Source: an uncultured Gemmatimonadales bacterium
GTDB lineage: Bacteria > Gemmatimonadota > Gemmatimonadetes > Gemmatimonadales > GWC2-71-9
Direction: 5' to 3'
DNA: 64,000 bases
Assembly: GCA_963730185.1 (NCBI GenBank)
Contig: CAVSQW010000003.1
Coordinates: 1 to 64,000 of the forward strand
The notes below the pieces were generated by a model, which worked only from the letters and a program-made list of their open reading frames with translations, did not search any database and was not told where the DNA came from. Made by a program: the position numbers and the translations under genes. The number at the start of each line of letters is the position of its first letter. Positions within the stretch are counted from its first letter, which is position 1. Positions 15,558 to 38,880 of this stretch are shown here, one piece after another.

Positions 15558-15631
15558 CGGGCCCGGCGAGATTCGAACTCACGACCTCTTGCTCCGGAGG
15601 CAAGCGCTCTATCCAGCTGAGCTACGGGCCC
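15558..15631 (-). tRNA. tRNA-Arg(CCG)
   Basis: GGGCCCG acceptor stem, CTTGC-CTCCGGA-GCAAG anticodon arm, GTTCGAAT T-loop. No encoded CCA. Confidence 0.95.
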
Positions 15632-15679
15632 TTGAGAGGGTTGTCAACTTATACCGACCCCGCCCCGATCGCCACCTGA

Positions 15680-17192
15680 TCAGGGGCGTCCCCCGGCGGC
15701 CGCCGGGACCGCTCCGGCCGACCGCCGGGCGCTCCATACCAGCTCGCCGTCCAGCCTCTCCGGCATCGGCTCACCCAGCCAGTCGATCATGGTGGGGAAG
15801 AGGTCCACGGTCCGGAGCGGCACGTCCGCGATCGGCCGGTTGCTCCAGAGCGGCGTTTGCATGTGGGCCCGGATCAGGCTGCCATGGCCGGACTTGATGC
15901 TCCGGGACCTCCCACTTGTCCCGGAAGTCGTAGCCTTCCCGGGCCACCACGACGAGGTCGCCGGTCCGGGGCGAGCGGAACTGGTCGAGGAGCTGGCGGG
16001 GCGCGTCGGGGTAGGGGCCGTCGAAGGTTCGCTCCAGCCAGCCCCGGTCGTCGGTGGAGCCGGGCCCGAGCTCCAGCGGGTCGCCGGTGACCGGCTGGTA
16101 GCCGATCGATCCGCCGCTTTCTCGGAGGCGGGCCTCGCCGTCCCGACCCACGATCGCGAGGCCGCCCTGGGCGGACTCGCCGGCCACGAATGCCACGCCT
16201 GGCTCTGCGGCCAGCCGGGCCACCAGGTCGGTCCCGGCGCCGAAGGTCCCGGGATCGCGGAGCCGTTCCAGGGGCCACCGGTCCGCCCGCGGCGCGCCCG
16301 GGGCGGCATAGACCATGGCCGACCCGTTGCCGGCCACCATCACGGCGGCCCGCGGGTCGCGTCGCCAGAGCTCCGGATGGGAGAGGGTGGGGACGCCGGC
16401 TTCCCGGAACCACCGGGCCAGGTCGAGATGCCGCCTGACCCGGGCGGCGCCGTGGTCGCTGACCATCAGGATGAGGGTGTCCTGGAGCAGCTCGCGCCGG
16501 GCCAGAGCGTCCACCAGCGCGCCCACCGCGGCGTCGACCTGGTGGAGCGACCGGACCACCTTCCGGTGGCTGGGATGAGTCTGATGGGTGTAGCCGTCGA
16601 CCGCCGGGAACTGGGCGAAAAGGAATCGCCAGTCGGGGTCGCGGTCGATCCAGCTCAGGAGGTTCCGGGCGACCGTGTCGTCGCCGGGCTGATGCCAGAG
16701 GAGATAGTGCGAGATGGCTCCCCAGAACTTGCGGGCGCCCTGGGTCGGGTCCCGGCCGGGGCCGAGCCCTCGGGTGATCATGGTGAAGAAGGCGGCGCTC
16801 TCGGGCACCAGCTCGAAGATGGTCCGGACGTCCGGGGCGATGTCGCCGTCCAACCGGCCGGCCTGGTAGCCGCAATAGCTCCGAACCGCCTCGCGGTCGC
16901 GCCACCAGCGGCCGCCGTAGGCCTGCCGGTCGAGCCAGCGAATCGAGGGGACGTTGCACCGGCCGGGAAGGCAGCCGGTGAGGAACGGCAGATACGAAAC
17001 GCTGGTGGTCGACGGGAAGGCGGTGATCGCCCGGGTCCGGCCGCCGCCGGCGACCAGCTGGGCCAGGTTCGGCAGGTGGCCCGCCAGGAGCTCGCTCTCG
17101 GCGACGTCCGGCCGGAGGCCATCGACCAGCAGGAGGATGACCCGTTTCCTGGAACCCCGCCCGCGGCGGGGCGGGAGGCTATCCTGGGTCAC
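15680..17192 (-). CDS. Alkaline phosphatase superfamily (NPP-type) phosphodiesterase (frameshift near 15897)
   Basis: LLVDGLRPD, FPSTT, DGYTH and SDHG, with a C-terminal KSGHGSL..RTVDLFPT in the next frame. Confidence 0.85.
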
Positions 17193-17393
17193 GGTTGGCT
17201 CCTTGAGGTCCGCGCGGGCCTCGAACTTGGCGGCGAGCGAAGGGTCGGGGGTCATCGGCCCCGACGGGGACACGGCTGGGAAGTTTCGGAGCGACCGTCC
17301 CCTGGCCGTCCCTTGCCCGTCCGACCCCCCGGTCGGACGGGCACCGACGACCGGTGCCGCCGCCGGTCCCGGGGGACCGGCGGGTCAGGCTTG

Positions 17394-17423
17394 AAAACAA
17401 AACCGCCATCACGACGATGGCGG
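17394..17423 (-). terminator. Intrinsic terminator of the tRNA cluster
   Basis: CCGCCATC-5 nt-GATGGCGG hairpin plus TTTTGTTTT on the minus strand. Confidence 0.8.
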
Positions 17424-17439
17424 CTCGGGTGTCATGCGA

Positions 17440-17514
17440 TCGGGGCGCCGGGATTTGAACCCGGGACCTCCTGCTCCCGAAGCAGGCGCGCTAACCGGGC
17501 TGCGCTACGCCCCG
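17440..17514 (-). tRNA. tRNA-Pro(CGG)
   Basis: CGGGGCG acceptor and CCTGC-TTCGGGA-GCAGG anticodon arm. Confidence 0.95.
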
Positions 17515-17516
17515 TA

Positions 17517-17590
<74 letters not shown>

Positions 17591-17601
17591 TCGAGTCTCC
17601 A

Positions 17602-17675
<74 letters not shown>

Positions 17676-17679
17676 GAGC

Positions 17680-17780
17680 CAGACGGACGAACGGACAGAC
17701 GGTCTGGCGGACAGGTTGGGAGTCGCGACTCGCTTCGCGCCGACCAGCTCCGTCCGTCGGTCCGGCTGTCCGTCTGTCCA
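17680..17780. repeat. GGAC/GTCC tetramer-rich imperfect inverted repeat
   Basis: GGACAGACGG pairs perfectly with CCGTCTGTCC. Similar arrays occur near 17325, 17900, 25575, 37890 and 52805. Confidence 0.6.
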
Positions 17781-17786
17781 CTGCCA

Positions 17787-17860
17787 TGGCGGGGGTGGGA
17801 TTTGAACCCACGACCTCCGGGTTATGAGCCCGGCGAGCTACCAGACTGCTCCACCCCGCG
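17787..17860 (-). tRNA. Initiator tRNA-fMet(CAT)
   Basis: C1 mismatch and three G-C pairs in the anticodon stem (CCGGG-CTCATAA-CCCGG). Confidence 0.95.
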
Positions 17861-17934
17861 TCGATGTCTGCATCGGCCGGCGATCGGTCGCCTTCCCGGT
17901 CCTTCCGTCCGACTGTCGGTCCGTTCCTACTCAG

Positions 17935-18007
17935 AGCGGGAAACGGGACTCGAACCCGCGACCCCAACCTTGGCAAGGTTGTGCTCTACCAACTGAGCTA
18001 TTCCCGC
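17935..18007 (-). tRNA. tRNA-Gly(GCC)
   Basis: GCGGGAA acceptor and CAACC-TTGCCAA-GGTTG anticodon arm. Confidence 0.95.
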
Positions 18008-18027
18008 ACAAGACCCAGCGGGCCACC

Positions 18028-18056
18028 ATAGTAGTACGCTGGACCGACGTTGGCAA
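18028..18056 (-). promoter_or_regulatory. Sigma70-like promoter upstream of tRNA-Gly
   Basis: TTGCCA-17 bp-TACTAT. Confidence 0.6.
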
Positions 18057-18068
18057 CCAGGCACCTGA

Positions 18069-18141
18069 TGGAGGCGAGGGGGATCGAACCCCTGACCTCG
18101 TGAATGCCATTCACGCGCTCTCCCAACTGAGCTACGCCCCC
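18069..18141 (-). tRNA. tRNA-Ala(GGC)
   Basis: GGGGGCG acceptor with G3:U70 and CGTGA-ATGGCAT-TCACG anticodon arm. Confidence 0.95.
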
Positions 18142-23117: not shown

Positions 23118-24695
23118 ATGGCGACTGATTCCGCACTGCGTCCCGGCGAGATCAAGGACATCCTGCTCAAGGAAATCGCGGCCGCCGACTTGTCGGCGGT
23201 GGACACGGCCGAAGTCGGCACCACGCTGGAGGTGCGCGACGGCGTGGCTCGGGTGTACGGGCTCCAGTCGGCGGTGGCGGGCGAGATGCTCGAGTTCACC
23301 GTGGCGGATACGGGTGAGACGATCACCGGCCTGGTGCTGAACCTCGAGCAGGACAACGTGGGCGCCGTGATTCTGGGCGACTACCTCAAGCTCAAGGAAG
23401 GCGACGAGGTCCGTTGCACCGGCCGGCTTCTCGAAGTCCCGGTGGGCGAGGCGATGCTGGGCCGGGTGGTGGACGCGCTGGGCCGGCCGGTGGACGGTCT
23501 CGGGGCGATCAAGACCTCCGCGGCGCGGCCGGTGGAGATGATCGCCCCGGGCATCATCGTGCGGCAGCCGGTGAAGGAGCCGCTCCAGACGGGGCTCAAG
23601 GCGATCGACTCGATGATCCCGATCGGGCGGGGGCAGCGGGAGCTGATCATCGGCGACCGCGGCACCGGGAAGACGGCGATCGCGGTCGACACGATCATCA
23701 ATCAGAAGGGCCAGGGCGTCGTCTGCGTGTACGTCGCGATCGGGCAGAAGCGCTCGACCGTGGCGATGGTGGTGGAGCGGCTGAAGGCGCAGGGCGCGAT
23801 GGACTACACCATCGTGGTGGTGGCCTCGGCGTCGGATCCGGCGCCGCTCCAGTACATCGCGCCGTACTCGGGGTGCGCGCTGGCCGAGCACTTCATGTAC
23901 GAGAAAGGGCAGGCGACGCTCTGCGTCTACGACGACCTGTCCAAGCAGGCGGCGGCGTACCGTCAGCTCTCGCTGATTCTCCGGCGTCCGCCGGGTCGGG
24001 AAGCCTACCCCGGTGACGTGTTCTATCTCCACAGCCGGCTCCTCGAGCGGGCGGCGAAGCTCTCGGAGGACGCGAACGTGGTGAAGCTCGACCCCCGGAT
24101 CAAGAAGCCGGGCGGGTCGCTGACCGCACTCCCGATCATCGAGACCCAGGCCGGTGACGTCTCGGCCTACATCCCGACCAACGTGATCTCGATCACGGAC
24201 GGCCAGATCTACCTGACGACCGATCTCTTCTTCTCCAATGTCCGCCCGGCGGTCGACGCGGGGATCTCGGTGAGCCGGGTGGGTGGCAACGCCCAGATCA
24301 AGGCGATGAAGCAGGTGGCCGCGCCGCTCCGGCTGGCGTTGGCCCAGTTCCGGGAGCTGGAGGCGTTCGCGCAGTTCGGCTCGGACCTCGACGCGGCGAC
24401 CCAGCGGCAGCTGGCGCGGGGCGGCCGGCTGGTCGAGGTGTTCAAGCAGCCGCAGTACCAGCCGATGCCGGTGGAGCGCCAGGTCGCGATCATCTACGCG
24501 GTGACCAACGGTCATCTGGACGACGTGGAGGTCGGTCAGATTCGTCAGTGGGAGCGTGATTTCCTGGCGTACCTGGAGGCCCAGCACCCGGAGATCTTCG
24601 AGACGATCCGGGTCAAGAAGGTTCTGAGCGACGATCTCAAGGGCCAGCTGGACCGGGCGATCAAGGCCTTCAAGCCGCTCTTCCGGCCCGAGTAA
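23118..24695 (+). CDS. atpA: F1 ATP synthase alpha subunit
   Basis: GDRGTGKT and [22 protein letters not shown]. Confidence 0.98.
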
Positions 24696-24696
24696 C

Positions 24697-25575
24697 ATGG
24701 CCAAGGGTCGCGAGCTCAAGGGCCGGATGCGGGCGGTCGAGAACACCCGCAAGATCACCCGCACGATGGAGCTGGTGGCCACGTCCAAGCTCAAGCGGGC
24801 GCAGGATCGCGTGGTGGCCGCCCGGCCCTACGCGGAGGCGTTGCGCGACGTGCTGGCCGACTTGATCAACCCGGACCTGGCCGCGCAGTTCCCCATGCTC
24901 CGGCACCCGGCGCCGCCCTCCAAGGGCGGGCCGGCCCGGGCGGCGGTGGTGCTGATGACCGCCAACGGCGGGCTCTGCGGCGCGTTCAACAGCAATCTGA
25001 TCAAGGAAGCCCGCCGCACGCTCGAGGCGCTCGAGGGAGCGGGCTATGCGGTCGACCTCCACTGCGTCGGGAAGCGGGGCGCGGGGTTCTTCCGCTATCT
25101 GGGCCGTCCGCTGGCGGCGGTCCGGACCGATCTCTTCGACCGGGTCACGGCCGACGACGCGGCCGGGCTGGTGGCCGACCTGATCGCCCAGTACGAGGCG
25201 GGCAAGCTGGCGAGCGTGGATTTGATCCACGCCCGTTTCAAGAGCGCCATCTCGGCCCTGCCCACGGTCACCCGGATCCTTCCGGTCGACGCGCCCTCGG
25301 GCACGACCGGCCGGCCGGACTACATCCTGGCGCCCAATGCCGAAGCCATCCTCGAGCAGCTGCTGCCGCTCTACGTCCGGAACACGGTGTACCGCGGGCT
25401 GGTCGAGACCGTGGCCGGGTTCTACGGGGCGCAGCGGACGGCCATGAAGAACGCGACCGACAACGCCGGCGAGCTGATGGACGCGCTCCGCCGGACCTAC
25501 AACCGCACCCGCCAGGCCCAGATCACCCAGGAGATCGCGGAGATCGTGGGTGGCGCGGCGGCGTTGCAGGGATAG
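24697..25575 (+). CDS. atpG: F1 ATP synthase gamma subunit
   Basis: KITRTMELVA, GLCGAFN and RQAQITQEIAEIVGGA. Confidence 0.97.
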   Translation: MAKGRELKGRMRAVENTRKITRTMELVATSKLKRAQDRVVAARPYAEALRDVLADLINPDLAAQFPMLRHPAPPSKGGPARAAVVLMTANGGLCGAFNSNLIKEARRTLEALEGAGYAVDLHCVGKRGAGFFRYLGRPLAAVRTDLFDRVTADDAAGLVADLIAQYEAGKLASVDLIHARFKSAISALPTVTRILPVDAPSGTTGRPDYILAPNAEAILEQLLPLYVRNTVYRGLVETVAGFYGAQRTAMKNATDNAGELMDALRRTYNRTRQAQITQEIAEIVGGAAALQG

Positions 25576-27320
<1,745 letters not shown>

Positions 27321-29414: not shown

Positions 29415-29774
29415 GTGAGACGGACCGGAACCGCGGTGCTGTTGGCCTCCGTCCTGCTGGGCGGCTGCGCACAAACCTTCGATGCGACCGCTCTCGGCGT
29501 CCCGGCGACGATGGCGTCGGAGGCGGGCGAGACGCCGGCGGGGCAGCCGTTCCACGTCACCACCCACACGGTCCACGCGCTGTTCGGCCTGATCCCCCTC
29601 AAGAAGGCGTCGCTCAAGAAGGCGCTGGCCGCCGAGCTGGTGGGCGGTACGGCGGTGGCCCAGGTCAGGATCAAGACCAAGAGCCGGTTGCTCGATCTCC
29701 TGGTGACCGGGCTCACCCTGGGGCTCGTGGCTCCCAAGACGGTCATCTACGAAGGGATCATCGTCGGCCGTTAG
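29415..29774 (+). CDS. Small lipoprotein (Bor/Iss-like)
   Basis: Lipobox LLGGC, HALFGLIP and LTLGLVAPKTV pattern. Confidence 0.65.
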   Translation: MRRTGTAVLLASVLLGGCAQTFDATALGVPATMASEAGETPAGQPFHVTTHTVHALFGLIPLKKASLKKALAAELVGGTAVAQVRIKTKSRLLDLLVTGLTLGLVAPKTVIYEGIIVGR

Positions 29775-31063
29775 GCACCCATCAGGAGCCTCACCAGACC
29801 GGCATTCCGCGCCGCCGCTCCACGCCCTGCCTCCACCACGCTCCGCGCCGCCCGGCCAGCCTCGAGCCGCTCGGCGTCGTCGTTGAGCCATTCGCTCCAC
29901 CGGACGGTCAGGTCGTCGACGGGGCCGAGCGCCGGCAGCGCGACGGCGCCGCCCGCCATCAACAGGAGCCCCGCCTCCCTGCTCGACTGCCAGCGCGGCC
30001 CCATGATGGTGGGCACCCCCGAGGCCGCGGGCTCGAGCACGGAGTGAAGGCCGGCCCGGCCGAACCCGCCTCCGACGTAGGCCAGCGTGGCCGCGCGGTA
30101 GAGGGTGGCCAGGACGCCCACCCGGTCCACGACCATGACCGGGGCCGGCTGGTCCGGGCTCTCGCTGAGGCGGATCGGGCGGGGAACCCCGAGGCTGGCG
30201 GCCCGCCGATCGAGCCCGGCGAGGTGGGACGGCGTGGGCTCGTGGGGCACGACGATCAGGCGCGCCCCGGGGTGATCTCGCCGGACCTCCTGAAAGGCCC
30301 CCAGCAGGACCGCTTCGTCCCGCGGCCAGGTGGACCCCGCCACCAGAGTTGCCCCACCCGCGCCGAGCCGGAGCAACGGTTCGTCGGCCGGCCCGGCCCG
30401 GGCCCGGTCCAGGGCACTGTCGAAGCGGGGGTCGCCGGTGACCGTGATCCGGGCCGGGTCGGCGCCCAGCCGGGCCAGCCGCTCGGCGTCCTCGGCGGCG
30501 ATGGCGCCGACCCGGTCGAGCGCAGCGTAGCCGGACCGGGTCAGGTCCCGGGCGGGCCAGCGGAGCCGGCCGCTCACCGGGCTCACCGTGCCGGCCACGA
30601 GCCCCACCTTCACCCCCGCGGCCCGGGCGGCGGTGGCGAAGCCGGGCCAGAGGTCGAGCTTGGTGAACACCAGCGCTCGGGGGGCCAGGGCTGCGAGCAG
30701 CGCCCGCGCGGCGCCGGGCGTGTCGTAGGGCAGGTAGTCGGCCGCGTCGGCCGGGATCCGTCGAGCCAGCGCTTCGGCCGACGGGCTGAAGAAGGTGTAG
30801 GCGATCTGCCAGTCGGGGTGCGCGGTCCGGAGAAGCCGGAGCACGGCGTCGGCCTGGAGCCCCTCGCCCACCGAGGGGGCATGGCACCAGAGCAGGGGGC
30901 GGCTCCGATCCCGATGAGCCGTGGCCCAGGCACCCCACCGGGCCGTCGCGCCGCGCCGAGCGAGGTCACCCCGGCGGAGCTTGGGAGCGAACGGCCGTCC
31001 GAGCGGGAGCAGGGCGGAGGCGAGGCCGGTCAGGGCGCGATAGAGGAGCGGCGTTTCGGGCAC
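29771..31063 (-). CDS. waaA: Kdo transferase
   Basis: WCHAPSVGE, YLPYDT, GDPRFD, VAGSTW, AYVGGGF and HSVLEPAA. Confidence 0.92.
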   Translation of the reverse strand: MPETPLLYRALTGLASALLPLGRPFAPKLRRGDLARRGATARWGAWATAHRDRSRPLLWCHAPSVGEGLQADAVLRLLRTAHPDWQIAYTFFSPSAEALARRIPADAADYLPYDTPGAARALLAALAPRALVFTKLDLWPGFATAARAAGVKVGLVAGTVSPVSGRLRWPARDLTRSGYAALDRVGAIAAEDAERLARLGADPARITVTGDPRFDSALDRARAGPADEPLLRLGAGGATLVAGSTWPRDEAVLLGAFQEVRRDHPGARLIVVPHEPTPSHLAGLDRRAASLGVPRPIRLSESPDQPAPVMVVDRVGVLATLYRAATLAYVGGGFGRAGLHSVLEPAASGVPTIMGPRWQSSREAGLLLMAGGAVALPALGPVDDLTVRWSEWLNDDAERLEAGRAARSVVEAGRGAAARNAGLVRLLMGA

Positions 31064-31154
31064 GCCCGAATGTCGAAGGGAGCGGGGTCTCGGGCAAGCG
31101 GGGTGGGCTGGAGCGGGGTTGTTTTTTCGCCGCCGTCTTCCCTACTTTGGAACG

Positions 31155-31366
31155 CCCCTCAGGTGGTTCAGTCGAACCCTGCAAAAAGGAGGTGATCCAT
31201 TGTCTAGTGTAAGTAGTCGTTCGAGCCTGGACTGGGCAAGCGATCGCCAGGTGATCGCGTAAGTTTCCCCCGAGCGTGACGTAGCGCCGGGTCGCATTCC
31301 AGGCGTTTCGCTCCAGGCTCGAAGGACACCGGTCGCGCCGTCCGCCCTCGAGGTGGGCGGCGCGAC
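31155..31366 (+). ncRNA. Structured RNA / leader containing a 20-codon ORF (31200-31262) with extended Shine-Dalgarno
   Basis: AAAGGAGGTGATCCA, then TTG...TAA. A 12-bp inverted repeat (31220-31231 / 31312-31323), inner hairpins, and a 15-bp terminal hairpin (31332-31366). Confidence 0.55.
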
Positions 31367-31394
31367 GCACATCACCCTCCGGATGCGGGTCACG

Positions 31395-32705
31395 ATGAAG
31401 CGTCCCATGCTCAGGCGATTGGCGCTGTTTCTGATCCTTCCCCTGGCGGCGGCGGGACCAGACCCCTCGGCCAAGGTGGTGCTGGCGCTCGCCATCATTT
31501 ACGCGGCGGCGCTGATCTTCGGCGAGCTGGCCGTGCGGCTCGGGCAGCCGGCGGTGTTGGGCGAGCTCGTGGCCGGCGTCGTCCTGGGCAACCTGCATCT
31601 GATCGGGATCGACTCGCTCAGCTTCATGGCGGACGAGCCCGGGATCGACCTCCTCGCCCGGCTCGGGGTGCTGCTTCTCCTCTTCGAGGTCGGGCTCGAA
31701 TCGACGGTCCACCAGATGCTGACCGTGGGCCTCAAGGCGGTGGCCGTGGCGGTGATCGGGGTGATCGCGCCGTTCGTGGTGGGCTGGGGGGTGGGCGCCT
31801 GGCTCCTGCCGACCGAGTCGTCGTACGTGCACGCCTTCCTCGGGGCGACGCTCTGCGCCACCAGCGTCGGGATCACCGCCCGGGTGCTCAAGGATCTGGG
31901 ACGCTCTCAGACCCGAGAAGCCAGGATCATCCTGGGCGCGGCGGTCGTGGACGACGTGCTGGGCATCGTGATCCTGGCGGTGGTGACGGCGGTGATCGCG
32001 GCGGCCGACACCGGGGCGAGCGTGAGCTACGGCGCGATGGGGCTGATCATGGCCAAGTCGGTCGGTTTCCTGGTGGGCGCGATCCTGGTGGGCGTGTGGC
32101 TCGCGCCCCGGATCATCCAATGGTCGGCGGGGCTCAAGGCGCATGCGGCCGGGTTGGCGGTGAGTCTGGCGTTCTGCTTCCTGACCGCGTATCTGGCCTA
32201 TGCCATCGGCCTGGCCGCGATCATCGGGGCGTTTGCGGCCGGGCTGGTGCTCGAGTCGTCGCACTACCGGCCGTTCACGGCCCGGGGTGGGCAGCCGATC
32301 GAGGAGCTGCTCCACCCGCTGATCCAGATGCTGGTGCCGGTGTTCTTCGTGTTGATGGGCATGCGGACCGATCTCCAGGCCTTCGCCGACGGCGGAGTGC
32401 TGCTCCTGGCCCTGGTGCTGAGCGTGGCGGCCATCGGGAGCAAGATGATCTGCGGCGTGGCGGCTGGCCGAGACACGAACCGGCTGGCGGTGGGGCTCGG
32501 GATGGTGCCGCGGGGCGAGGTGGGGCTGATCTTCGCCAACATCGGCCTCGGCCTGGTGCTCGCGGGACGGCCGCTGATCAGCGAGACCACCTACTCCGCG
32601 GTGGTGGTGATGGTCATTCTGACCACGATGGCCACGCCCCCGGCCCTCAAGTGGAGCTTCGGCCGGCGAGAGACGACGTTCCCGGCGGGAGGCCAGTCGG
32701 GATGA
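31395..32705 (+). CDS. Cation:proton antiporter (CPA2/NapA-like)
   Basis: QPAVLGEL, LFEVGLE, ATSVGIT, AAVVDDVLG and GMVPRGEVGL. Confidence 0.92.
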   Translation: MKRPMLRRLALFLILPLAAAGPDPSAKVVLALAIIYAAALIFGELAVRLGQPAVLGELVAGVVLGNLHLIGIDSLSFMADEPGIDLLARLGVLLLLFEVGLESTVHQMLTVGLKAVAVAVIGVIAPFVVGWGVGAWLLPTESSYVHAFLGATLCATSVGITARVLKDLGRSQTREARIILGAAVVDDVLGIVILAVVTAVIAAADTGASVSYGAMGLIMAKSVGFLVGAILVGVWLAPRIIQWSAGLKAHAAGLAVSLAFCFLTAYLAYAIGLAAIIGAFAAGLVLESSHYRPFTARGGQPIEELLHPLIQMLVPVFFVLMGMRTDLQAFADGGVLLLALVLSVAAIGSKMICGVAAGRDTNRLAVGLGMVPRGEVGLIFANIGLGLVLAGRPLISETTYSAVVVMVILTTMATPPALKWSFGRRETTFPAGGQSG

Positions 32706-32737: not shown

Positions 32738-33472
32738 ATGAACACCTCGTCCTATTGGGCCCGCACCCGGGCGCCGCGCTACAGCCTGACCTTCGCGCTG
32801 CCGCTGCTGCTCCTCTACGAGGCGCTGGCCTTTCTCCTGAGTGGCGACGCCATGGCCGGAGTCCGGAATGGCGCCGACGTGCTGCTCAAGAGCGTCTTCA
32901 CGACCTTCGGCGGCCGGCACGGGCTCACCGTATTCGGCGTGCTGCTGCTCGGATTGGGAGCCTGGCTGGTGATCCGCGACCGTCGGCGAAGCGGGCCGAT
33001 CGAGGCGCGGCTCTTCCTCGGCATGCTGGGCGAGTCGATCGGCTATGCCCTCGTTCTCGGCGGCGTGGCGAGCACTCTCACCTCGCTGGTCCTTGGCCGG
33101 CTCGGCTTCGCGCTCTCGGCCGGCGGGCTTCAACAGTTCGGGTTCCCAACCCAGATCATGATCTCGCTGGGCGCGGGGATCTACGAGGAGCTGTTGTTCC
33201 GGGTGATCCTGGTGTCGGGACTGGCCTGGCTCGGCCGGTCGGTCTTCGGCTGGAAGGCTCTGCCCTCGGGCATCATGGCGACGGTGGTGGGCGCGCTGGT
33301 CTTCTCGGCGTTTCACTACGTTGGCCCGTTCGGCGACCCCTTCGCCCTCGACTCGTTCGTCTTCCGGGCGATCGCAGGCGTGCTGTTCAGCGCGCTCTAT
33401 CTCTTGCGCGGGTTCGGCATCGCCGCCTGGAGCCATGCGCTGTACGATGTGTTCCTGGCAGTGGTGGGGTAG
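32738..33472 (+). CDS. CPBP (CAAX/Abi) intramembrane glutamic protease
   Basis: YEELLFR, FSAFHY and HALYD motifs. Confidence 0.88.
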   Translation: MNTSSYWARTRAPRYSLTFALPLLLLYEALAFLLSGDAMAGVRNGADVLLKSVFTTFGGRHGLTVFGVLLLGLGAWLVIRDRRRSGPIEARLFLGMLGESIGYALVLGGVASTLTSLVLGRLGFALSAGGLQQFGFPTQIMISLGAGIYEELLFRVILVSGLAWLGRSVFGWKALPSGIMATVVGALVFSAFHYVGPFGDPFALDSFVFRAIAGVLFSALYLLRGFGIAAWSHALYDVFLAVVG

Positions 33473-33479
33473 GCGGGCC

Positions 33480-33514
33480 ACCCACTCCATCCCTCCCCAT
33501 CCCTCCCCATCCCT
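33480..33514. repeat. CCCTCCCCAT tandem repeat
   Basis: Same 10-nt unit as near 20000 and 34270; lies between convergent genes. Confidence 0.7.
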
Positions 33515-36500
33515 CACCTGAAATCCCTCGATCGGAACGAGAGCGCCGCTCGCGGCCGAATCGGCTTGAGCCGTTCCGCCAGGATCTGGATCACCGGCCC
33601 GTCGCGCTGGATCTTGCCCAGGACCAGCAGGAACGGGGCATGCCGGACGACCTCCCGGTAGGTCTGCTCCACCTCCCGCCGCACGATCACGTTCAGGAAC
33701 CCGAACTCGTCCTCCATCAGGATGAACAGCACTCCGGCTGCGCTCTCCGGCCGTTGCCGGGTCACGACCAGTCCGCCCGCCAGCACCCGCTCGCCGTGGC
33801 GGGTGCCGGCCAGGTCGCGGCTGTCGAGCGACCCGAACCGGGTCAGCCGGGGCCGGAGATGCTCCATCGGGTGCCCGATCAGGCTCGACCCGGTGCTGAA
33901 GTAGTCGAGGAAGATCGACTCGGTCCGGCCCAGAGGGCGGGGGGAGTGTCGGGAGGGACGTGATGGGGCGAGGGGGAGGGTGTCGGCCACGTGGCGGAGG
34001 GCCTCCCAGGCGGCTTTCCGGCGGTCCGGCTCCCAGGCGCCGAACGCGCCGGCCCGCGCCAGCCCCAGCGCGTCGGGCTTGCCGAGCCGAGCCCGGAGGA
34101 CCACGTCGGCGATGCTCTCGAAGAGGCTCTCTTTCCGGGCCCGGTCCAGGGTAGCGATGGCCTGGTCGCCGACGCCCCGGATGAAGCGCCAGCCCAGGCG
34201 GAGGGGTGGGGAGGGATGGGGGGAGATGGGGGGAGATGGGAGGGTGGGGGCATTTCCCCGGACCCCCTCCCTCCCCATCCCTCCCCCTCCCTCCCCATCC
34301 CCCCCCATCCCTCCCCCTCCCTCCACCCGGCATTCCGCCTCTCCCTCCAGCAGACACGGCCCCGCCACCACCACGCCCGCGCGACGGGCATCGTGAATCA
34401 GGGTGGCGATCGGGTAGAACCCCATCGGCTGGGCGTTGAGCAGCCCCAGCAGGAACTCGGTCGGATAGTGGCACTTGAGGTACGCCGTCGCATAGGCGAT
34501 CAGCGCGAAGCTCCAGGCGTGCGACTCCGGGAAGCCGTAGTTGGCGAAGCTCATCAGGTCTTCCTCGATCCGTTCGGCCACCGGTTCGTCGATCCCGTTC
34601 GCGATCAGCCGTTCCCGGAGCTGAGCCAGGGCCTCGAGCAGCTTGGTCCGCTTCCGCTGGTGTCCCATGGTCCGGCGGAGGAGATCGGCCTCGGCCGCGG
34701 AATAGCCGGCCAGCGCCATCGCGATGGCCATGGCCTGCTCCTGGAAGATCGGAATGCCCTGGGTCCGCTGGAGGATCGGCTCCAGCGCCGGGTGCAGGTA
34801 GCTGACCGGCTCCTCGCCCCGGCGGCGCTTGGTGTAGGGATGGACGAACTTGGCCTGGATCGGTCCCGGCCGGATCAGGGCCACCTGCACCACCAGGTCG
34901 TAGAGGCGCTCCGGCTTGGTATGGAGGATCGAGGCGATCTGAGCTCGGCTCTCGATCTGGAAGGTCCCGATGGTCTCGCCCCGGGAGATCATGGCGTAGG
35001 TGGCCGGGTCGTCGTCGGGCAGCTGGTACATCGAGAGCGTGGTGCCGGTCCGGGCCTCGATCGCGTCGAAGGCGCGGCGGATCAGCGCCAACCCGCCGAG
35101 GCCGAGAAAGTCGAACTTCGGAATCCCGACCGAATCGAGGTCGTCCTTGTCGAACTGGACGATGGTCCGTCCCATCGAGGTGGACTCGATCGGGAGGTAG
35201 TCGCCTAGGGGGCGGAGGACAGCACGAACCCGCCGGGATGGGTGGAGCGGAGCCGGGGCAGGTCGTCGAAGGCGCGAATGGCCTGGAGCACGGTCCGGGC
35301 CCGCTCGTCGGTCAGATCGAAGCCTTGGGCCTGGGCCAGCCCGCCCTCCAACTGCTCGGCGCCATCCAGGCACCCGTAGCGGTGGAGCCGCTTCGAGAGC
35401 TTGAACGCCAGCTCGGCCGGATAGCCGAACGCCCGCATGGTGTCCTGGACCGCGGTGCAGGCGCTGTAGATCTGGGTGACCCCGGTGATCGCGGAATGTT
35501 CTCGCTGGTAGCGTCGGTAGACGTAATTCAGGACCTCCTCGCGCCGGTCGTGCTCGAAGTCCACGTCGATGTCCGGCGCCTCGGTCAGCCCGTCGACCCG
35601 GGCCTCCGAAAGGAAGCGCTCGAAGAGGAGCCCGTGTTTGACCGGGTCGACCGCGGTAATGCCGAGACAGTAGGCCACGGCCGAGTTGGCGGCGCTGCCC
35701 CGGCCCTGGGCCAGGATGCTCCGTTCCCGCGCGAACCGGACGGCGTCCCACATCACCAGGAAGAAGCCCGAGAACCCCAATCGGGCGATGACCTTGAGCT
35801 CGTGCTCGAGTTGAGCCGTCTCCCGCGGGCCCGGGGTCCCCCAGCGCTCTCGGGCGCCGGCGAACGTCAGCTCTCGGATCCAGGAGTCGTCGTCGTGGCC
35901 CTCCGGACATTTGAACGTGGGCAAGGGGGGACGCACCCAGCGGAGCTCGAAGCCACATTCCGCCGCGATCCGATCGCTCTCGCCAAGCCCAGCTTCGGCG
36001 CCCCGCCAGCGGCGGGCCAGCTGTTCGGGTGGGAGCAGGCGCCAGTCGCCGTTGGGGTGGAGCAGTCCCTTTCGGGTGGCGGACGCGATGTCGGTACCGT
36101 GACGAAGCGCGGTGAGCACCTCGTGCACCAGCCGCGAATCGTCATCGAGGTAGCGGGGATCCTGGGCCACCACCCAGGGCACGCCGTGCCGCCGGGCCAG
36201 CTCGATCAGCGCGCCGGCGAGCGCCTCCTCGTCGCGGCCCGTGTGGTGGAGCTGTACCTCCACGGCCAGCCGGTCGGAGAACGTCTCGCGGTAGCGGGCC
36301 AGGAGCTGAGCGGCGTCGGCTCGACGGCCCTGCCGGACCAGGGTGGCCAGCGCGCCCGACGCGGGGCCGGTGAGGAGGTGGACACCCTCACTGCGTTCCA
36401 GCAGATCGTCCCAGGTGAGCCCGGGCCGGCCCCGGGTGGCGGTCCGGCGGGTCCAGCGCCGGAGCCGGCCGACTCGTGAGCGGGTGACGAGGCCGGCCAC

Positions 36501-36755
36501 GTGACGGAAGCCCGCGTCCGACCGGGCCAGGAGCGCCAGCGGCCGGCCGTCGACCACCAGCTCCGCGCCGGCGATCGGCCGGATGCCCTGCTCCCGGCAG
36601 GCGAGCCCAAAGCGAACCACCCCGCCGAGATCGGCGTGATCGGTGAGGCCGATCGCCGAGTAGCCGAGCCCGGCGGCCCGGCGGGCCAGGGCCTCGGGGG
36701 CGACGGCGCCGTCGCCGAACGAATAGGCGGAATGGCCACGAAGCTCGGTGGGCAT
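33514..36755 (-). CDS. dnaE2: Error-prone DNA polymerase III alpha (frameshift near 35210)
   Basis: PHP HSAYSF, GRGSAANS, PDIDVDF, HPGGFV, FQIESRAQ, YGFPESHA and C-terminal SRDFR. Lies downstream of imuAB. Confidence 0.93.
34201..34327. repeat. In-frame G/C palindromic repeat inside dnaE2
   Basis: GGGAGATGGG arm and CCCTCCCCAT arm, encoding GGGGMGGDGEGGGGMG...PSPPISPHPSPP. Confidence 0.8.
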
Positions 36756-36761
36756 CGGCGG

Positions 36762-38174
36762 TCAGTCCCACCAGCCCGCCAAATACCAGTGATTGTCGAT
36801 CAAGTCGCGATAGAGCAGCACCGGTACGCCGTCGGTGCGGATGCCCTGGAAGTACTCGCGATCGTAGCGAGACTCGCCGTAGCCGCCCGACACCCGGTCC
36901 GGCCCGAGCGCGTCGCGGATCGAAAAGACGACCCCGCCGTCGCGATACCGGGTGGGCACCTCGCCGTCCTGTCGTGGCGACGACCGTACCTGAACCGCTC
37001 GGGGCGCTTCGAGCAGGGCGAGCGCGAGCCGGGGGGGGCGCTCGCGCAGCGCCCCGGCCCGACGGCCGGTGTGGGGCGCTGGGCCGGTCTGGACCGCCCG
37101 CCACCTGACCCGGCGCTCCGGCAGCGGATGCTCGGTCCGCTCGGCCTCGACCAGGGCGTCGTCCTGTTTGTCGAGCAGGTGCGCCAGCGCGGCTTCGGTG
37201 GCGCGCGCGGTGGCGAACCCCTGGTCGAAGAGATCGCCCTGGCGATCGGCCAGTGGGGTCAGCGCCTCGACCCGGAGGGCGATTTTCGTGACCGGCGCCG
37301 AGAAGGTGACCTGCTCGAGCGTGGCCCGCACGATCCGGAGCCAGGTCCGCCGGTCGGCGGTGGGCGTCGACGCGTGGAGCGGATGGATCACCGCGGAGCG
37401 ATCGGACAGCGCGAACTCGAGCGCCAGGGCATGCGCTCCCTCACCCCGGGCGGCCAGCGCGTCGCACACGGTGCCGAGGAGCGAGTGGACGATGAAGACC
37501 ACCTGCTCTTGTCGCTCCAGCTCGTAGTCCACCCACTCGAGCTCGGCTTCCGGGAGCGAGCGGGCCCGGGGGGAGAAGAGGAGCCGGTCGTCGTCGGCCC
37601 GGGCCAGCCGCCAGAGTCTCACCCCCTCGATCCCGAAGCGGACCTCGACCGACTCGCGATCGAGCCGGGCCAGGTCGCCGCAGCACTCGAGGCCGGTGCC
37701 CGCGAGCAGGGGGTAGAGGTTGGGCGGCGGAAGCGGGTGCAGCATCCCGAGGTCGAGCGGGGCGAGGAAGGCGCGGTCGGTGTCGGGGGGAACGACGAGA
37801 AGGTGGCCAGGTGAGACGCGGGCGGCGGCCTCGGCCGCGACCGGCGTCGTGGCGACGCCCGCGCTGATCCAGCCCTCGCCTCGGGTTTCGCTTGTCCGTT
37901 CGTCCGTCGGTCCGTCTGCCCGTCCAGCTTCCCGTTCACCCGTCTGCCCATCCACCCGTCCAGCTTCCGGTCCGCCCGTCCACCCGTCCGCCCGTCCAAT
38001 CTCCCCCAGCATTCTCTCCGCCACCTGCCGCCCATCCAACCCGCGTGCGTCCGCCCACACCACGTCTCGCTCCAGGCGGATCCGGGGTGCGTGGGAAAGG
38101 AGCCGGGCGGCGAGCTCAGTCGAGCGTCCCGCGGCGATCGGCCAGTCCGGGCTCCAGAGACAGACGCAGGTCAT
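36762..38174 (-). CDS. imuB: ImuB-like Y-family polymerase homolog
   Basis: MTCVCLWSP, RAFLAPL, GDLARL..RFG, QGDLF clamp motif, GPDRVSGG..REYF and WYLAGWWD. Confidence 0.85.
   Translation of the reverse strand: MTCVCLWSPDWPIAAGRSTELAARLLSHAPRIRLERDVVWADARGLDGRQVAERMLGEIGRADGWTGGPEAGRVDGQTGEREAGRADGPTDERTSETRGEGWISAGVATTPVAAEAAARVSPGHLLVVPPDTDRAFLAPLDLGMLHPLPPPNLYPLLAGTGLECCGDLARLDRESVEVRFGIEGVRLWRLARADDDRLLFSPRARSLPEAELEWVDYELERQEQVVFIVHSLLGTVCDALAARGEGAHALALEFALSDRSAVIHPLHASTPTADRRTWLRIVRATLEQVTFSAPVTKIALRVEALTPLADRQGDLFDQGFATARATEAALAHLLDKQDDALVEAERTEHPLPERRVRWRAVQTGPAPHTGRRAGALRERPPRLALALLEAPRAVQVRSSPRQDGEVPTRYRDGGVVFSIRDALGPDRVSGGYGESRYDREYFQGIRTDGVPVLLYRDLIDNHWYLAGWWD
37890..38000. repeat. 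In-frame CCGT/CCGC tetramer array inside imuB
   Basis: GTCCGTTCGTCCGTCGGTCCGTCTGCCCGTCC...CCGTCCACCCGTCCGCCCGTCC. Confidence 0.7.
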
Positions 38175-38880
38175 GGGACACGAGTGGGAGGTGTAAGGTG
38201 GTGGCCGCTTTCCAACCGGGCGCGCGGGCCTCGATCGCGACGGCGACCGAGGCGAGCTGGGCGGCGTGCCCGAACGGTCCCGGGACGGTCCGATGCTCGA
38301 GCGGCAGAAAGCGGGAGGTGATCCGGAGGCTCGCGGTCAGGGAACGACGGGTGACGGCGAGAAAGCCGCCGCCGCCCTCATGGGCCATTCTCGAAAGTCG
38401 GAGCATAGCCGTGGATTCGGGGTCGACCCCGGCCAGCACCACCAGCGCGAACCCTCCGGAGCGGAGCAGGATCTCGGTCGCGCGGAGGGCCAGCTCGAGG
38501 GAGTCCGGCCGGACCACCAGCGGCCCGTCGTCCCAGTGGTGGCCCAGGGTCCGGGCCCCGTCGATCCAGGCCACCCGCTCCCCGCGATCCAGGATCGAGG
38601 CTGCCGCCGCGCGGAGCAGCGCGCTGGCGGCCCCATGGAGGCTCTGCCACACGGTGAGGCGACCTCGGGGGAGCCCGCCGTTGGGCAGGATCCCATCCAG
38701 GATCCTGAGGCCCGTGGGGATCGGAGGGACGACCCGGTCGGGAAGAGGGACCGCATCCGGAAACCGGTCCCGAAGGATTGCCCTCAGCGCCCCCGGCGCG
38801 GGCCCCCGGCCCCCCGCGGCCTCGGGGACCGTTTGGGGGGAGCGGAGGGCGTCAGGCTCGAGGAGGGGAAGGGCGGTCAC
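38116..38880 (-). CDS. imuA: ImuA / RecA-like protein
   Basis: PTGLRILDGILPNGGLPRG, degenerate Walker A, VAWID and ILLRSGGFALVVL. Confidence 0.8.
   Translation of the reverse strand: MTALPLLEPDALRSPQTVPEAAGGRGPAPGALRAILRDRFPDAVPLPDRVVPPIPTGLRILDGILPNGGLPRGRLTVWQSLHGAASALLRAAAASILDRGERVAWIDGARTLGHHWDDGPLVVRPDSLELALRATEILLRSGGFALVVLAGVDPESTAMLRLSRMAHEGGGGFLAVTRRSLTASLRITSRFLPLEHRTVPGPFGHAAQLASVAVAIEARAPGWKAATTLHLPLVSHDLRLSLEPGLADRRGTLD

What the first reader, a model, noticed from the sequence alone, without database searches (positions are those of the whole stretch)
31119..31366. Structured RNA with a 15-nt perfect complement to the 16S rRNA 3' end and a 20-codon ORF
Seen in sequence: a candidate promoter (TTGTTT-18-TACTTT), a small hairpin (GGTTC/GAACC), then AAAGGAGGTGATCCA (31185-31199), the exact complement of the canonical 16S tail TGGATCACCTCCTTT and far longer than any other RBS noticed here. 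It is followed by TTG-started MSSVSSRSSLDWASDRQVIA* (31200-31262). The ORF is embedded in a 12-bp stem (TTCGAGCCTGGA/TCCAGGCTCGAA) with an inner GCGATCGC/GTGATCGC hairpin, and a 15-bp hairpin lies just before the antiporter. Inference: a ribosome-binding or sequestering small RNA, or a leader-peptide attenuator controlling the Na+/H+ antiporter. I cannot assign it to a known family.
Basis: partly seen in the sequence, partly recalled or inferred. Interest (0 to 1): 0.8.

Follow-up and report, generated by a model that had tools for sequence, protein, structure and literature searches.

The report
Ribosome-docking mini-mRNA (rre type), Gemmatimonadota
This is a conserved, free-standing small RNA gene whose start can pair with nearly the whole free tail of the ribosome's 16S RNA and which carries a tiny reading frame that seems to matter for being translated rather than for its peptide; it is a Gemmatimonadota variant of the unexplained 'rre' small mRNAs published for Alphaproteobacteria, not a dedicated regulator of the neighbouring antiporter.

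Summary
Observation confirmed. The 15-nt match is the genome's longest complement to its own 16S tail outside the rRNA gene. The ~213-nt RNA (about 31154-31366) has relatives in 74 of 150 phylum genomes. Its long stem and terminal hairpin covary (25 of 27 pairs). The short frame is kept in 87 of 87 distinct relatives, yet the peptide drifts (pN/pS 0.90). A near-invariant 15-mer inside the frame can pair back over the SD and start codon in 98.8% of cells, without compensatory changes. The antiporter follows in only 7 of 84 loci, and 30 of 79 have a convergent neighbour, so this is not a general antiporter attenuator; read-through in this genus stays possible. Closest known: rreB/rreR (PMC5711450) and Rfam CC2171 (25.9 bits, threshold 75). 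Best reading: a 30S-docking, weakly translated mini-mRNA that switches between masked and open folds; its physiological output is unknown. Similar elements occur in sampled Planctomycetota and a gammaproteobacterial family. This scan has noted the family before in other genomes, including Gemmatimonadota.

The parts
31119..31148 (+). Putative sigma-70-type promoter (-35 at 31119-31124, -10 at 31143-31148)
   Evidence: Not found by the consensus scan; same arrangement in 11 of 11 genus loci checked; TTG and the last T invariant in the 11-sequence genus alignment. Start site inferred, not measured.
31154..31366 (+). Small structured mRNA of rre type, about 213 nt (ends inferred)
   Evidence: Fold z -5.35; model R1 85.2 bits; relatives in 74 of 150 phylum genomes; three 152-185 nt RNA-library contigs of relatives lie on it.
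31185..31199 (+). Extended Shine-Dalgarno, 15-nt complement of this genome's 16S 3' tail
   Evidence: computed duplex -26.8 kcal/mol.
31200..31262 (+). 20-codon frame with TTG start; frame conserved, peptide not
   Evidence: Frame kept in 87 of 87 distinct relatives, 16-24 codons, starts TTG 78, GTG 7, ATG 2; pN/pS 0.90.
31220..31231 (+). P1 5' arm (inside the frame), pairs with 31312-31323
   Evidence: 12 of 12 pairs with changes on both sides, 87.5% of cells paired, 50 sequences.
31234..31248 (+). Near-invariant 15-nt core inside the frame; complementary to SD and start (31191-31197 with 31242-31248; 31200-31205 with 31234-31239); alternatively pairs in P2 (31240-31243 with 31308-31311) or a local hairpin (31240-31247 with 31251-31258)
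   Evidence: Masking helix 98.8% of 650 cells paired, no compensatory change; P2 98.5% paired, 2 of 4 pairs with changes on both sides; local hairpin in the genus consensus.
31308..31323 (+). P2 and P1 3' arms
31332..31366 (+). Terminal 15-bp hairpin; terminator-like in relatives, no U-run here
   Evidence: 11 of 11 counted pairs with changes on both sides; U-run counts.
29771..31063 (-). Divergent neighbour: KDO transferase (PF04413)
31353..32705 (+). Downstream neighbour: Na+/H+ exchanger (PF00999); real start probably an ATG at 31383, 31395 or 31407; context only
   Evidence: follows the RNA in 7 of 84 loci.
32738..33472 (+). Rce1-like/CPBP membrane protease gene (PF02517); directly follows the RNA in many relatives that lack the antiporter; context only

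Best explanation
A stand-alone rre-type mini-mRNA that docks the 30S subunit and reads out translation through its own fold. Shown by comparison: own promoter-like and terminator-like ends, an over-long SD, a weak start codon, a conserved short frame with a drifting peptide, a covarying stem P1 that ties the frame to the 3' end, and an in-frame core complementary to the SD and start. Inferred: (1) the nascent RNA folds closed, with the core over the SD/start; (2) once the 3' arm is made, P1/P2 draw the core away and the SD opens; (3) a 30S subunit binds through 12-15 bp with the 16S tail and initiates slowly; (4) the occasional ribosome that clears the start melts P1/P2, which lets the RNA re-close or be degraded, as start-codon-dependent decay was shown for rreB. 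The RNA's level and state would thus track free, initiation-competent 30S subunits. What the cell gains is not shown; the act of docking and translating, not the peptide, is most likely what is selected.
For: Distribution and single copy; covariation score 0.579 versus 0.256 in shuffles and 0.09-0.14 in slid controls; start-to-core distance only 31, 34 or 37 nt in 87 of 87, other frames give 18-25 codons in 9 and 2 of 48; core codons change amino acid (W/R, D/G) while third positions stay fixed; pN/pS 0.90; SD/start-to-frame duplex better than shuffles (z<-1.5) in 71 of 75 phylum elements across three unrelated frame types; predicted SD:frame pairing falls from 0.65 (RNA cut at the stop) to 0.31 (full length), lower in 74 of 77; masked and open folds of the window RNA lie within 6 kcal/mol of the minimum (-97.0, -96.9, -102.6); rreB co-sediments with 30S, is weakly translated, and is stabilised by loss of its start codon (PMC5711450).
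Against: No ribosome binding, translation or transcript ends measured for this RNA. The masking helix has no compensatory change (500 of 500 shuffles equal it), and its SD side was fixed by my search pattern. The folding program allows no pseudoknots, so part of the nascent-to-full drop is forced; in the 11-codon type the drop is small. Core-to-3'-tail pairing is not better than shuffles in the 18-25-codon type (mean z -0.32). In this genus a local hairpin and the 5' leader also compete for core and SD. Long SDs alone are not special: 94 of 114 viral matches precede long or truncated frames. 20-fold rreB overexpression had no growth effect (PMC5711450).
Confidence: 0.6

Rival explanations
1. 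The RNA is an RNA 'parking' or quality-control factor for 30S subunits: the long SD duplex covers the single-stranded 16S 3' tail, protecting it from RNase R, or selectively captures subunits lacking bS21 or with an immature platform. Compatible with the best explanation and would supply its missing output.
For: An SD oligonucleotide protects 16S from RNase R in vitro (PMC10901742, passages); a 13-bp SD helix excludes bS21 in Flavobacterium (PMC13000457); bS21 is argued to hinder extended pairing in E. coli (PMC13009471 discussion); this genome has 3 bS21 matches; two or more bS21 matches in 29 of 72 element-positive versus 18 of 77 negative genomes.
Against: The bS21 association is weak (p 0.034, kin not independent, genome size not controlled; it was much stronger, 46 of 99 versus 31 of 202, before model-found members were added); 43 of 72 positive genomes have one bS21. 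Ribosomes far outnumber rreB and overexpression had no growth effect (PMC5711450 discussion). A conserved stop codon and frame are not needed for mere parking.
Confidence: 0.22
2. A cis leader that sets read-through into the downstream Na+/H+ antiporter (and CPBP gene), at least as a genus-specific co-option.
For: The antiporter start lies within about 17-41 nt of the hairpin, leaving no room for a promoter; U-run absent in 5 of 5 antiporter loci and 5 of 6 other genus loci scored; one genus member has a different cation-antiporter-like subunit gene there (L074, PF00361/PF00662).
Against: Antiporter in 7 of 84 loci; convergent neighbour in 30 of 79; unrelated neighbours elsewhere; no conserved sensing codons; the terminal hairpin has no conserved competing pairing in the column scan; no nhaA or Na+ riboswitch hit.
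Confidence: 0.1
3. The product is a functional 20-residue peptide whose expression is kept low by the SD, start codon and fold (type I toxin-like logic).
For: Frame and length conserved; a W/R-A-S-D/G-R stretch recurs; Hahn et al. read RreB/RreR as conserved small proteins.
Against: pN/pS 0.90, with more changes at codon positions 1 and 2 than 3 (93, 99, 79); the recurring residues sit on the invariant RNA core; lengths of 11, 14-15 and 16-25 codons occur in the phylum; codon 2 varies (Ser, Pro, Thr, Ala, Ile); the peptide is polar, not membrane-like (sequence).
Confidence: 0.08

Closest known systems
rreB (Bradyrhizobiaceae) and rreR (Rhodobacterales) small mRNAs, Hahn et al., RNA Biol 14:1353, PMC5711450
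   Same: Stand-alone 150-250 nt gene; 15-17 nt complement of the 16S tail running up to a non-AUG start; short frame (14 or 18 codons there); SD partly buried in predicted structure; context not conserved; the sequence from just upstream of the SD through codon 2 is nearly the same as the rreB primer sequence in the paper's supplement.
   Different: Different phylum (paper names only Alphaproteobacteria); mostly TTG rather than GTG start; unrelated frame sequence; own 15-nt core and covarying P1/P2; peptide shown here to drift; model R1 scores alphaproteobacterial loci only 8-32 bits, overlapping a phage long-SD control at 19 bits, so common descent is not shown.
Rfam RF01867 CC2171 (Caulobacter sRNA)
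   Same: Begins with the same extended SD, start codon and Ser codon and ends in a terminal hairpin; the only Rfam hit spanning the element (E 0.0029). A full-scoring CC2171 member (L108, 81.2 bits) has a 25-codon frame and a predicted self-masking fold.
   Different: 25.9 bits against a gathering score of 75; the middle stems do not align. An rreB-type locus also stays below threshold (47.4 bits).
rpsU extended SD of Flavobacteriales (PMC13000457)
   Same: Very long SD helix (13 bp) used to respond to ribosome state.
   Different: There it heads the bS21 gene as a cis autoregulatory site in ribosomes with a sequestered anti-SD; here it heads a free-standing mini-frame; none of this genome's three bS21 genes shows such an SD.
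Leader-peptide attenuators; nhaA-I/nhaA-II and Na+ riboswitches
   Same: Short frame and hairpins upstream of an antiporter gene in this genome.
   Different: No Rfam hit; no conserved downstream gene; often convergent neighbour.

Membership tests
rre small mRNAs (Hahn et al.) | At least 16 nt complementary to the 16S 3' end (the paper's search criterion) | tested here: not met
   15 nt exact; TTG start cannot add the 16th; relatives keep about 12 nt. Misses the stated cut-off by one base, so filed as a variant that works like rre.
rre small mRNAs (Hahn et al.) | Complementary region runs up to the start of a short ORF with a weak start codon | tested here: met
   TTG at 31200, 20 codons; frame kept in 87 of 87 relatives.
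rre small mRNAs (Hahn et al.) | Stand-alone gene with own promoter and terminator, context not conserved | tested here: met
   (computational; terminator lacks U-run in this genus).
rre small mRNAs (Hahn et al.) | SD region partly sequestered in RNA structure | tested here: inconclusive
   98.8% pairing but no compensatory change; z<-1.5 in 71 of 75.
rre small mRNAs (Hahn et al.) | Discrete transcript | tested here: inconclusive
   Three 152-185 nt contigs of relatives in one RNA library lie on the element; contigs cannot show ends, strand or level.
rre small mRNAs (Hahn et al.) | 30S co-sedimentation, weak translation, start-codon-dependent decay | not testable with these tools
   Needs bench work.
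Rfam RF01867 CC2171 | Score at or above 75 bits | tested here: not met
   25.9 bits; two other phylum loci 25.4 and 25.6, two more not listed at E 0.5.
Leader-peptide attenuator of the antiporter | Conserved position upstream of the same regulated gene | tested here: not met
   7 of 84 loci; 30 of 79 convergent.
Leader-peptide attenuator of the antiporter | Conserved sensing codons and terminator/antiterminator alternative | tested here: not met
   pN/pS 0.90; no conserved helix of 5 bp or more competing with the terminal hairpin in the column scan.
   No such hit at gathering score in the window or at E up to 10 in 30600-31700.

The most novel reading that the evidence does not exclude
rre-type RNAs are one widespread, multi-phylum class of ribosome-platform RNAs: two-state RNAs that seize the 16S 3' tail of idle, bS21-free or immature 30S subunits, shield or tag them, and are reset by a round of translation through a frame whose peptide is irrelevant - an RNA counterpart of hibernation and quality-control factors.
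Probability: 0.2. Interest if true: 0.85.

Novelty: new variant of a known kind. Interest (0 to 1): 0.55.

Why it matters
rreB has been a functional orphan since one paper. A version in a distant phylum, with enough diversity to separate what is kept (docking site, frame, RNA pairings) from what is not (peptide, neighbours), turns the puzzle into testable statements: translation matters but not the product, and the RNA has an in-built anti-SD. Presence in about half of sampled Gemmatimonadota and in sampled Planctomycetota and a gammaproteobacterial family suggests an overlooked, broadly used layer of control at the 30S platform. The tests can be run in cultivable Alphaproteobacteria with the known relatives.

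Tried and rejected
Rfam at gathering score: only 7 tRNAs in the window. Promoter/terminator consensus scan: nothing. A stray 16S fragment: rejected, the match stops after 15 nt and the flanks are unrelated to the rRNA gene. Invariant Ser at codon 2: an artefact of my first pattern; a pattern excluding it found 11 more members among 30 loci fetched of 31 matches, with Pro, Thr, Ala or Ile. Two pattern hits (L047, L058; frames of 39 and at least 100 codons) were dropped as chance matches before all counts. Pairing-maximised register search was biased and replaced by a plain alignment. Phage-borne copies as a class: 94 of 114 viral matches precede long or truncated frames; 3 of the 20 short ones are rreB-like. 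bS21 paralogue link: weakened once model-found members were included; inconclusive. Homology to alphaproteobacterial rre by model R1: scores overlap a long-SD control; inconclusive. Sequencing runs: one RNA run with share 0.08; laid contigs were of relatives (4-8 differences), the kdtA side and 31315-31518 had no cover, which shows nothing. Not in print beyond Alphaproteobacteria as far as nine searches go: (771 papers, swamped by 16S primers, 30 listed); most subscription journals are not in the library, and only the primer table of the Hahn supplement was held, so its extended alignments were not seen.

Full report
1. Observation. The 15-mer at 31185-31199 occurs twice in the 5.27-Mb genome: here and as the reverse strand of the 16S gene's own 3' end. 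Of 20,551 GGAGG sites, it is the longest match to the tail apart from the rRNA gene; in a crude set of 2,757 long GC3-biased ORFs the best upstream match was 9 nt. The region folds better than 200 of 200 shuffles (z -5.35). The consensus scan found no promoter or terminator. Rfam gives no hit at gathering score other than 7 tRNAs elsewhere; the best permissive hit is CC2171 over 31176-31363 at 25.9 bits against a threshold of 75.

2. Distribution. An SD-plus-start pattern hit 11 of 41 relatives and 89 of 301 phylum genomes, against 1 for the reversed control. Two fetched hits (L047, L058) were chance matches and were dropped. A pattern excluding Ser at codon 2 added 11 members among 30 loci fetched. 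A covariance model from 62 sequences hit 74 of 150 phylum genomes, almost always once; a few of these are weak (E 0.002-0.01), and 0 of 12 genomes in two distant families were hit. Named records with the same subtype are titled Gemmatimonadota, one with the same kdtA/CPBP/dsbA neighbours (L092, L104), which is my basis for the phylum. A single scan of the genome collection stopped at 120 rows; of the 80 with titles shown most are Alphaproteobacteria, and 116 of 120 have frames of 27 codons or fewer, one of them cut by a contig end. Follow-ups found such elements in 6 of 201 genomes in the phylum of a Planctomycetaceae record and pattern hits in 17 of 41 genomes in the family of a Pseudohongiella record, 13 of 15 fetched having 23-26 codons.

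3. The frame. Among 81 phylum loci, 53 carried the 15-nt core (48 distinct); the core was in the same frame in 48 of 48, and the frame had 18-25 codons in 48 of 48 versus 9 and 2 of 48 in the other two frames. With later loci, 87 of 87 distinct sequences kept the frame, with start-to-core distances of 34 (70), 37 (14) or 31 (3) nt and starts TTG 78, GTG 7, ATG 2 (the start was taken 12 or 11 nt after GGAGG). Kin share indels, so the independent events are few (several lineages by inspection), but all are multiples of three. The peptide is not conserved as such: pN/pS is 0.90 over 52 nearest-neighbour pairs (1.04 and 0.67 in the shifted frames), and changes fall 93, 99 and 79 at codon positions 1-3. 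In the core, amino acids change while third positions stay fixed. I infer that being translated is selected, the product largely not.

4. The fold. On a plain 50-sequence alignment, P1 (12 bp), P2 (4 bp) and the terminal hairpin (11 bp counted) are 90.5% paired, 25 of 27 pairs have changes on both sides, and the covariation score is 0.579 versus 0.256 in shuffles and 0.09-0.14 when slid. A column scan showed a second helix: the core pairs with the 3' half of the SD and the first two codons (13 bp). It is 98.8% paired in 650 cells but has no compensatory change, so the shuffles equal it; the SD side is tied to the 16S sequence and was fixed by my pattern. An independent test, duplex energy of SD/start against the frame body versus dinucleotide shuffles, gave z below -1.5 in 71 of 75 phylum elements, including 11-codon and 14-15-codon types with unrelated sequences, and in 55 of 103 other elements. 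I had seen the phrase 'self-masking start' in an earlier scan note before this test; Hahn et al. also predicted a buried SD for rreB. Predicted SD:frame pairing averages 0.65 in RNA cut at the stop and 0.31 at full length, lower in 74 of 77. Against this: nested-only folding forces part of the drop, the 11-codon type changes little, and core-to-tail pairing is no better than shuffles in the main type. For the window RNA the minimum fold is -102.6 kcal/mol, the forced masked fold -97.0, the forced open fold -96.9, and the SD:16S-tail duplex -26.8.

5. Context. The antiporter follows in 7 of 84 loci, all in the window's genus; many relatives have the CPBP gene or a convergent dsbA-like gene directly after the RNA. 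By a GC-frame gene call the downstream gene is convergent in 30 of 79 loci, and a Pfam scan of 63 of those 79 downstream frames gave many unrelated families. A U-run of at least 5 in 8 follows the hairpin in 14 of 18 convergent loci, 11 of 21 other same-strand loci, 0 of 5 antiporter loci and 1 of 6 other genus loci (hairpin end approximate). So the family is not an antiporter leader, but in this genus the hairpin may leak and the promoter may also feed the antiporter.

6. Expression. One metatranscriptome held a small share of the words. Three short contigs of relatives (152, 185, 160 nt; 4-8 differences) lie on 31171-31308. This is a weak hint only: contigs show no ends, strand or level, and DNA can be in such a library.

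7. How it most likely works. See Best explanation (0.6): a 30S-docking, weakly initiating mini-mRNA that alternates between masked and open folds and is reset or degraded by translation. Shown: anatomy, conservation pattern, covariation of P1 and the hairpin. Inferred: masking, switching, 30S binding (by analogy with rreB). Unknown: the physiological output. Rivals: protective or quality-control capture of 30S (0.22), cis read-through control (0.10), functional peptide (0.08). The bS21 link was tested: two or more matches in 46 of 99 pattern-positive versus 31 of 202 negative genomes, falling to 29 of 72 versus 18 of 77 once model-found members were counted; with kin and genome size uncontrolled this is inconclusive.

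8. Comparison with what is known. It works like rreB/rreR. It misses the paper's 16-nt criterion by one base and the CC2171 threshold by 49 bits, so it is a variant, not a filed member. Model R1 scores alphaproteobacterial loci at 8-32 bits (72 sources searched, a chosen subset), overlapping a phage long-SD control at 19 bits, so common descent versus convergence is open. Long SDs also head ordinary phage genes (94 of 114 matches). Papers seen: PMC5711450, parts 1-4 of 6 (abstract to discussion) and two rows of its one held supplement file; bioRxiv 10.1101/2022.01.24.477521, six passages, CC2171 expressed in Methylorubrum; PMC13009471, abstract and discussion part 1 of 2; PMC13000457, abstract, one results section and discussion part 1 of 2; PMC10901742, twelve passages; PMC5082802, two passages, nothing relevant; all others as search listings only. 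I found no paper describing the element outside Alphaproteobacteria in nine searches; unseen supplements and subscription journals could hold one. Earlier notes of this scan report the same kind in three other Gemmatimonadota genomes and in other phyla; these are unchecked leads, not support.

9. Verdict. Real, conserved, and a new variant of a known but unexplained kind. Interest 0.55. The boldest reading not excluded, a multi-phylum class of RNA factors that hold or vet 30S subunits, has probability about 0.2 and would merit 0.85.

Noticed in passing
L355:2252-6601 (G112:C129): A 4.3-kb island (cytochrome c peroxidase PF03150, PAP2 PF01569, and a recombinase-looking remnant without a Pfam hit; that label is my recall) splits the RNA gene at a 15-nt direct repeat that is the extended SD plus start codon; the island supplies a new leader. 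The SD appears to have served as an integration site.
   Followed up: partly
L356:1077-1112 (G093:C1): A CRISPR-like array of 34-36 repeats has one spacer containing an extended SD followed by GTG; source unknown, may be an ordinary strong phage SD.
   Followed up: no
G000:C15:581965, C7:341155, C8:210756: Three bS21 matches in this genome; 298 of 301 phylum genomes have at least one.
   Followed up: partly
L234-L239: In the phylum of a record titled Planctomycetaceae, 7 of 201 genomes match the pattern and 6 carry 10-19-codon frames in GC-rich hairpin contexts.
   Followed up: partly
L402-L416: In the family of a record titled Pseudohongiella, 17 of 41 genomes match; 13 of 15 fetched have 23-26-codon frames, most ending in a U-tailed hairpin.
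   Followed up: partly
L017-L031; L042-L054: Shortened Gemmatimonadota variants with 11-codon and 14-15-codon frames and different core sequences that still pair with the SD.
   Followed up: partly
L392, L394, L398, L399: One genus has a core with a changed base that could pair with the upstream GGAG of the SD instead; a possible register shift of the masking helix.
   Followed up: no
window 33514-38880 (-): Cluster that looks like an imuA/imuB/split dnaE2 mutagenesis cassette from the ORF translations (labels from my own knowledge, not scanned).
   Followed up: no
window 23118-27320 (+); 15558-18141 (-): F1 ATP synthase alpha, gamma, beta, epsilon genes (recognised from own knowledge) and seven tRNA genes.
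   Followed up: no
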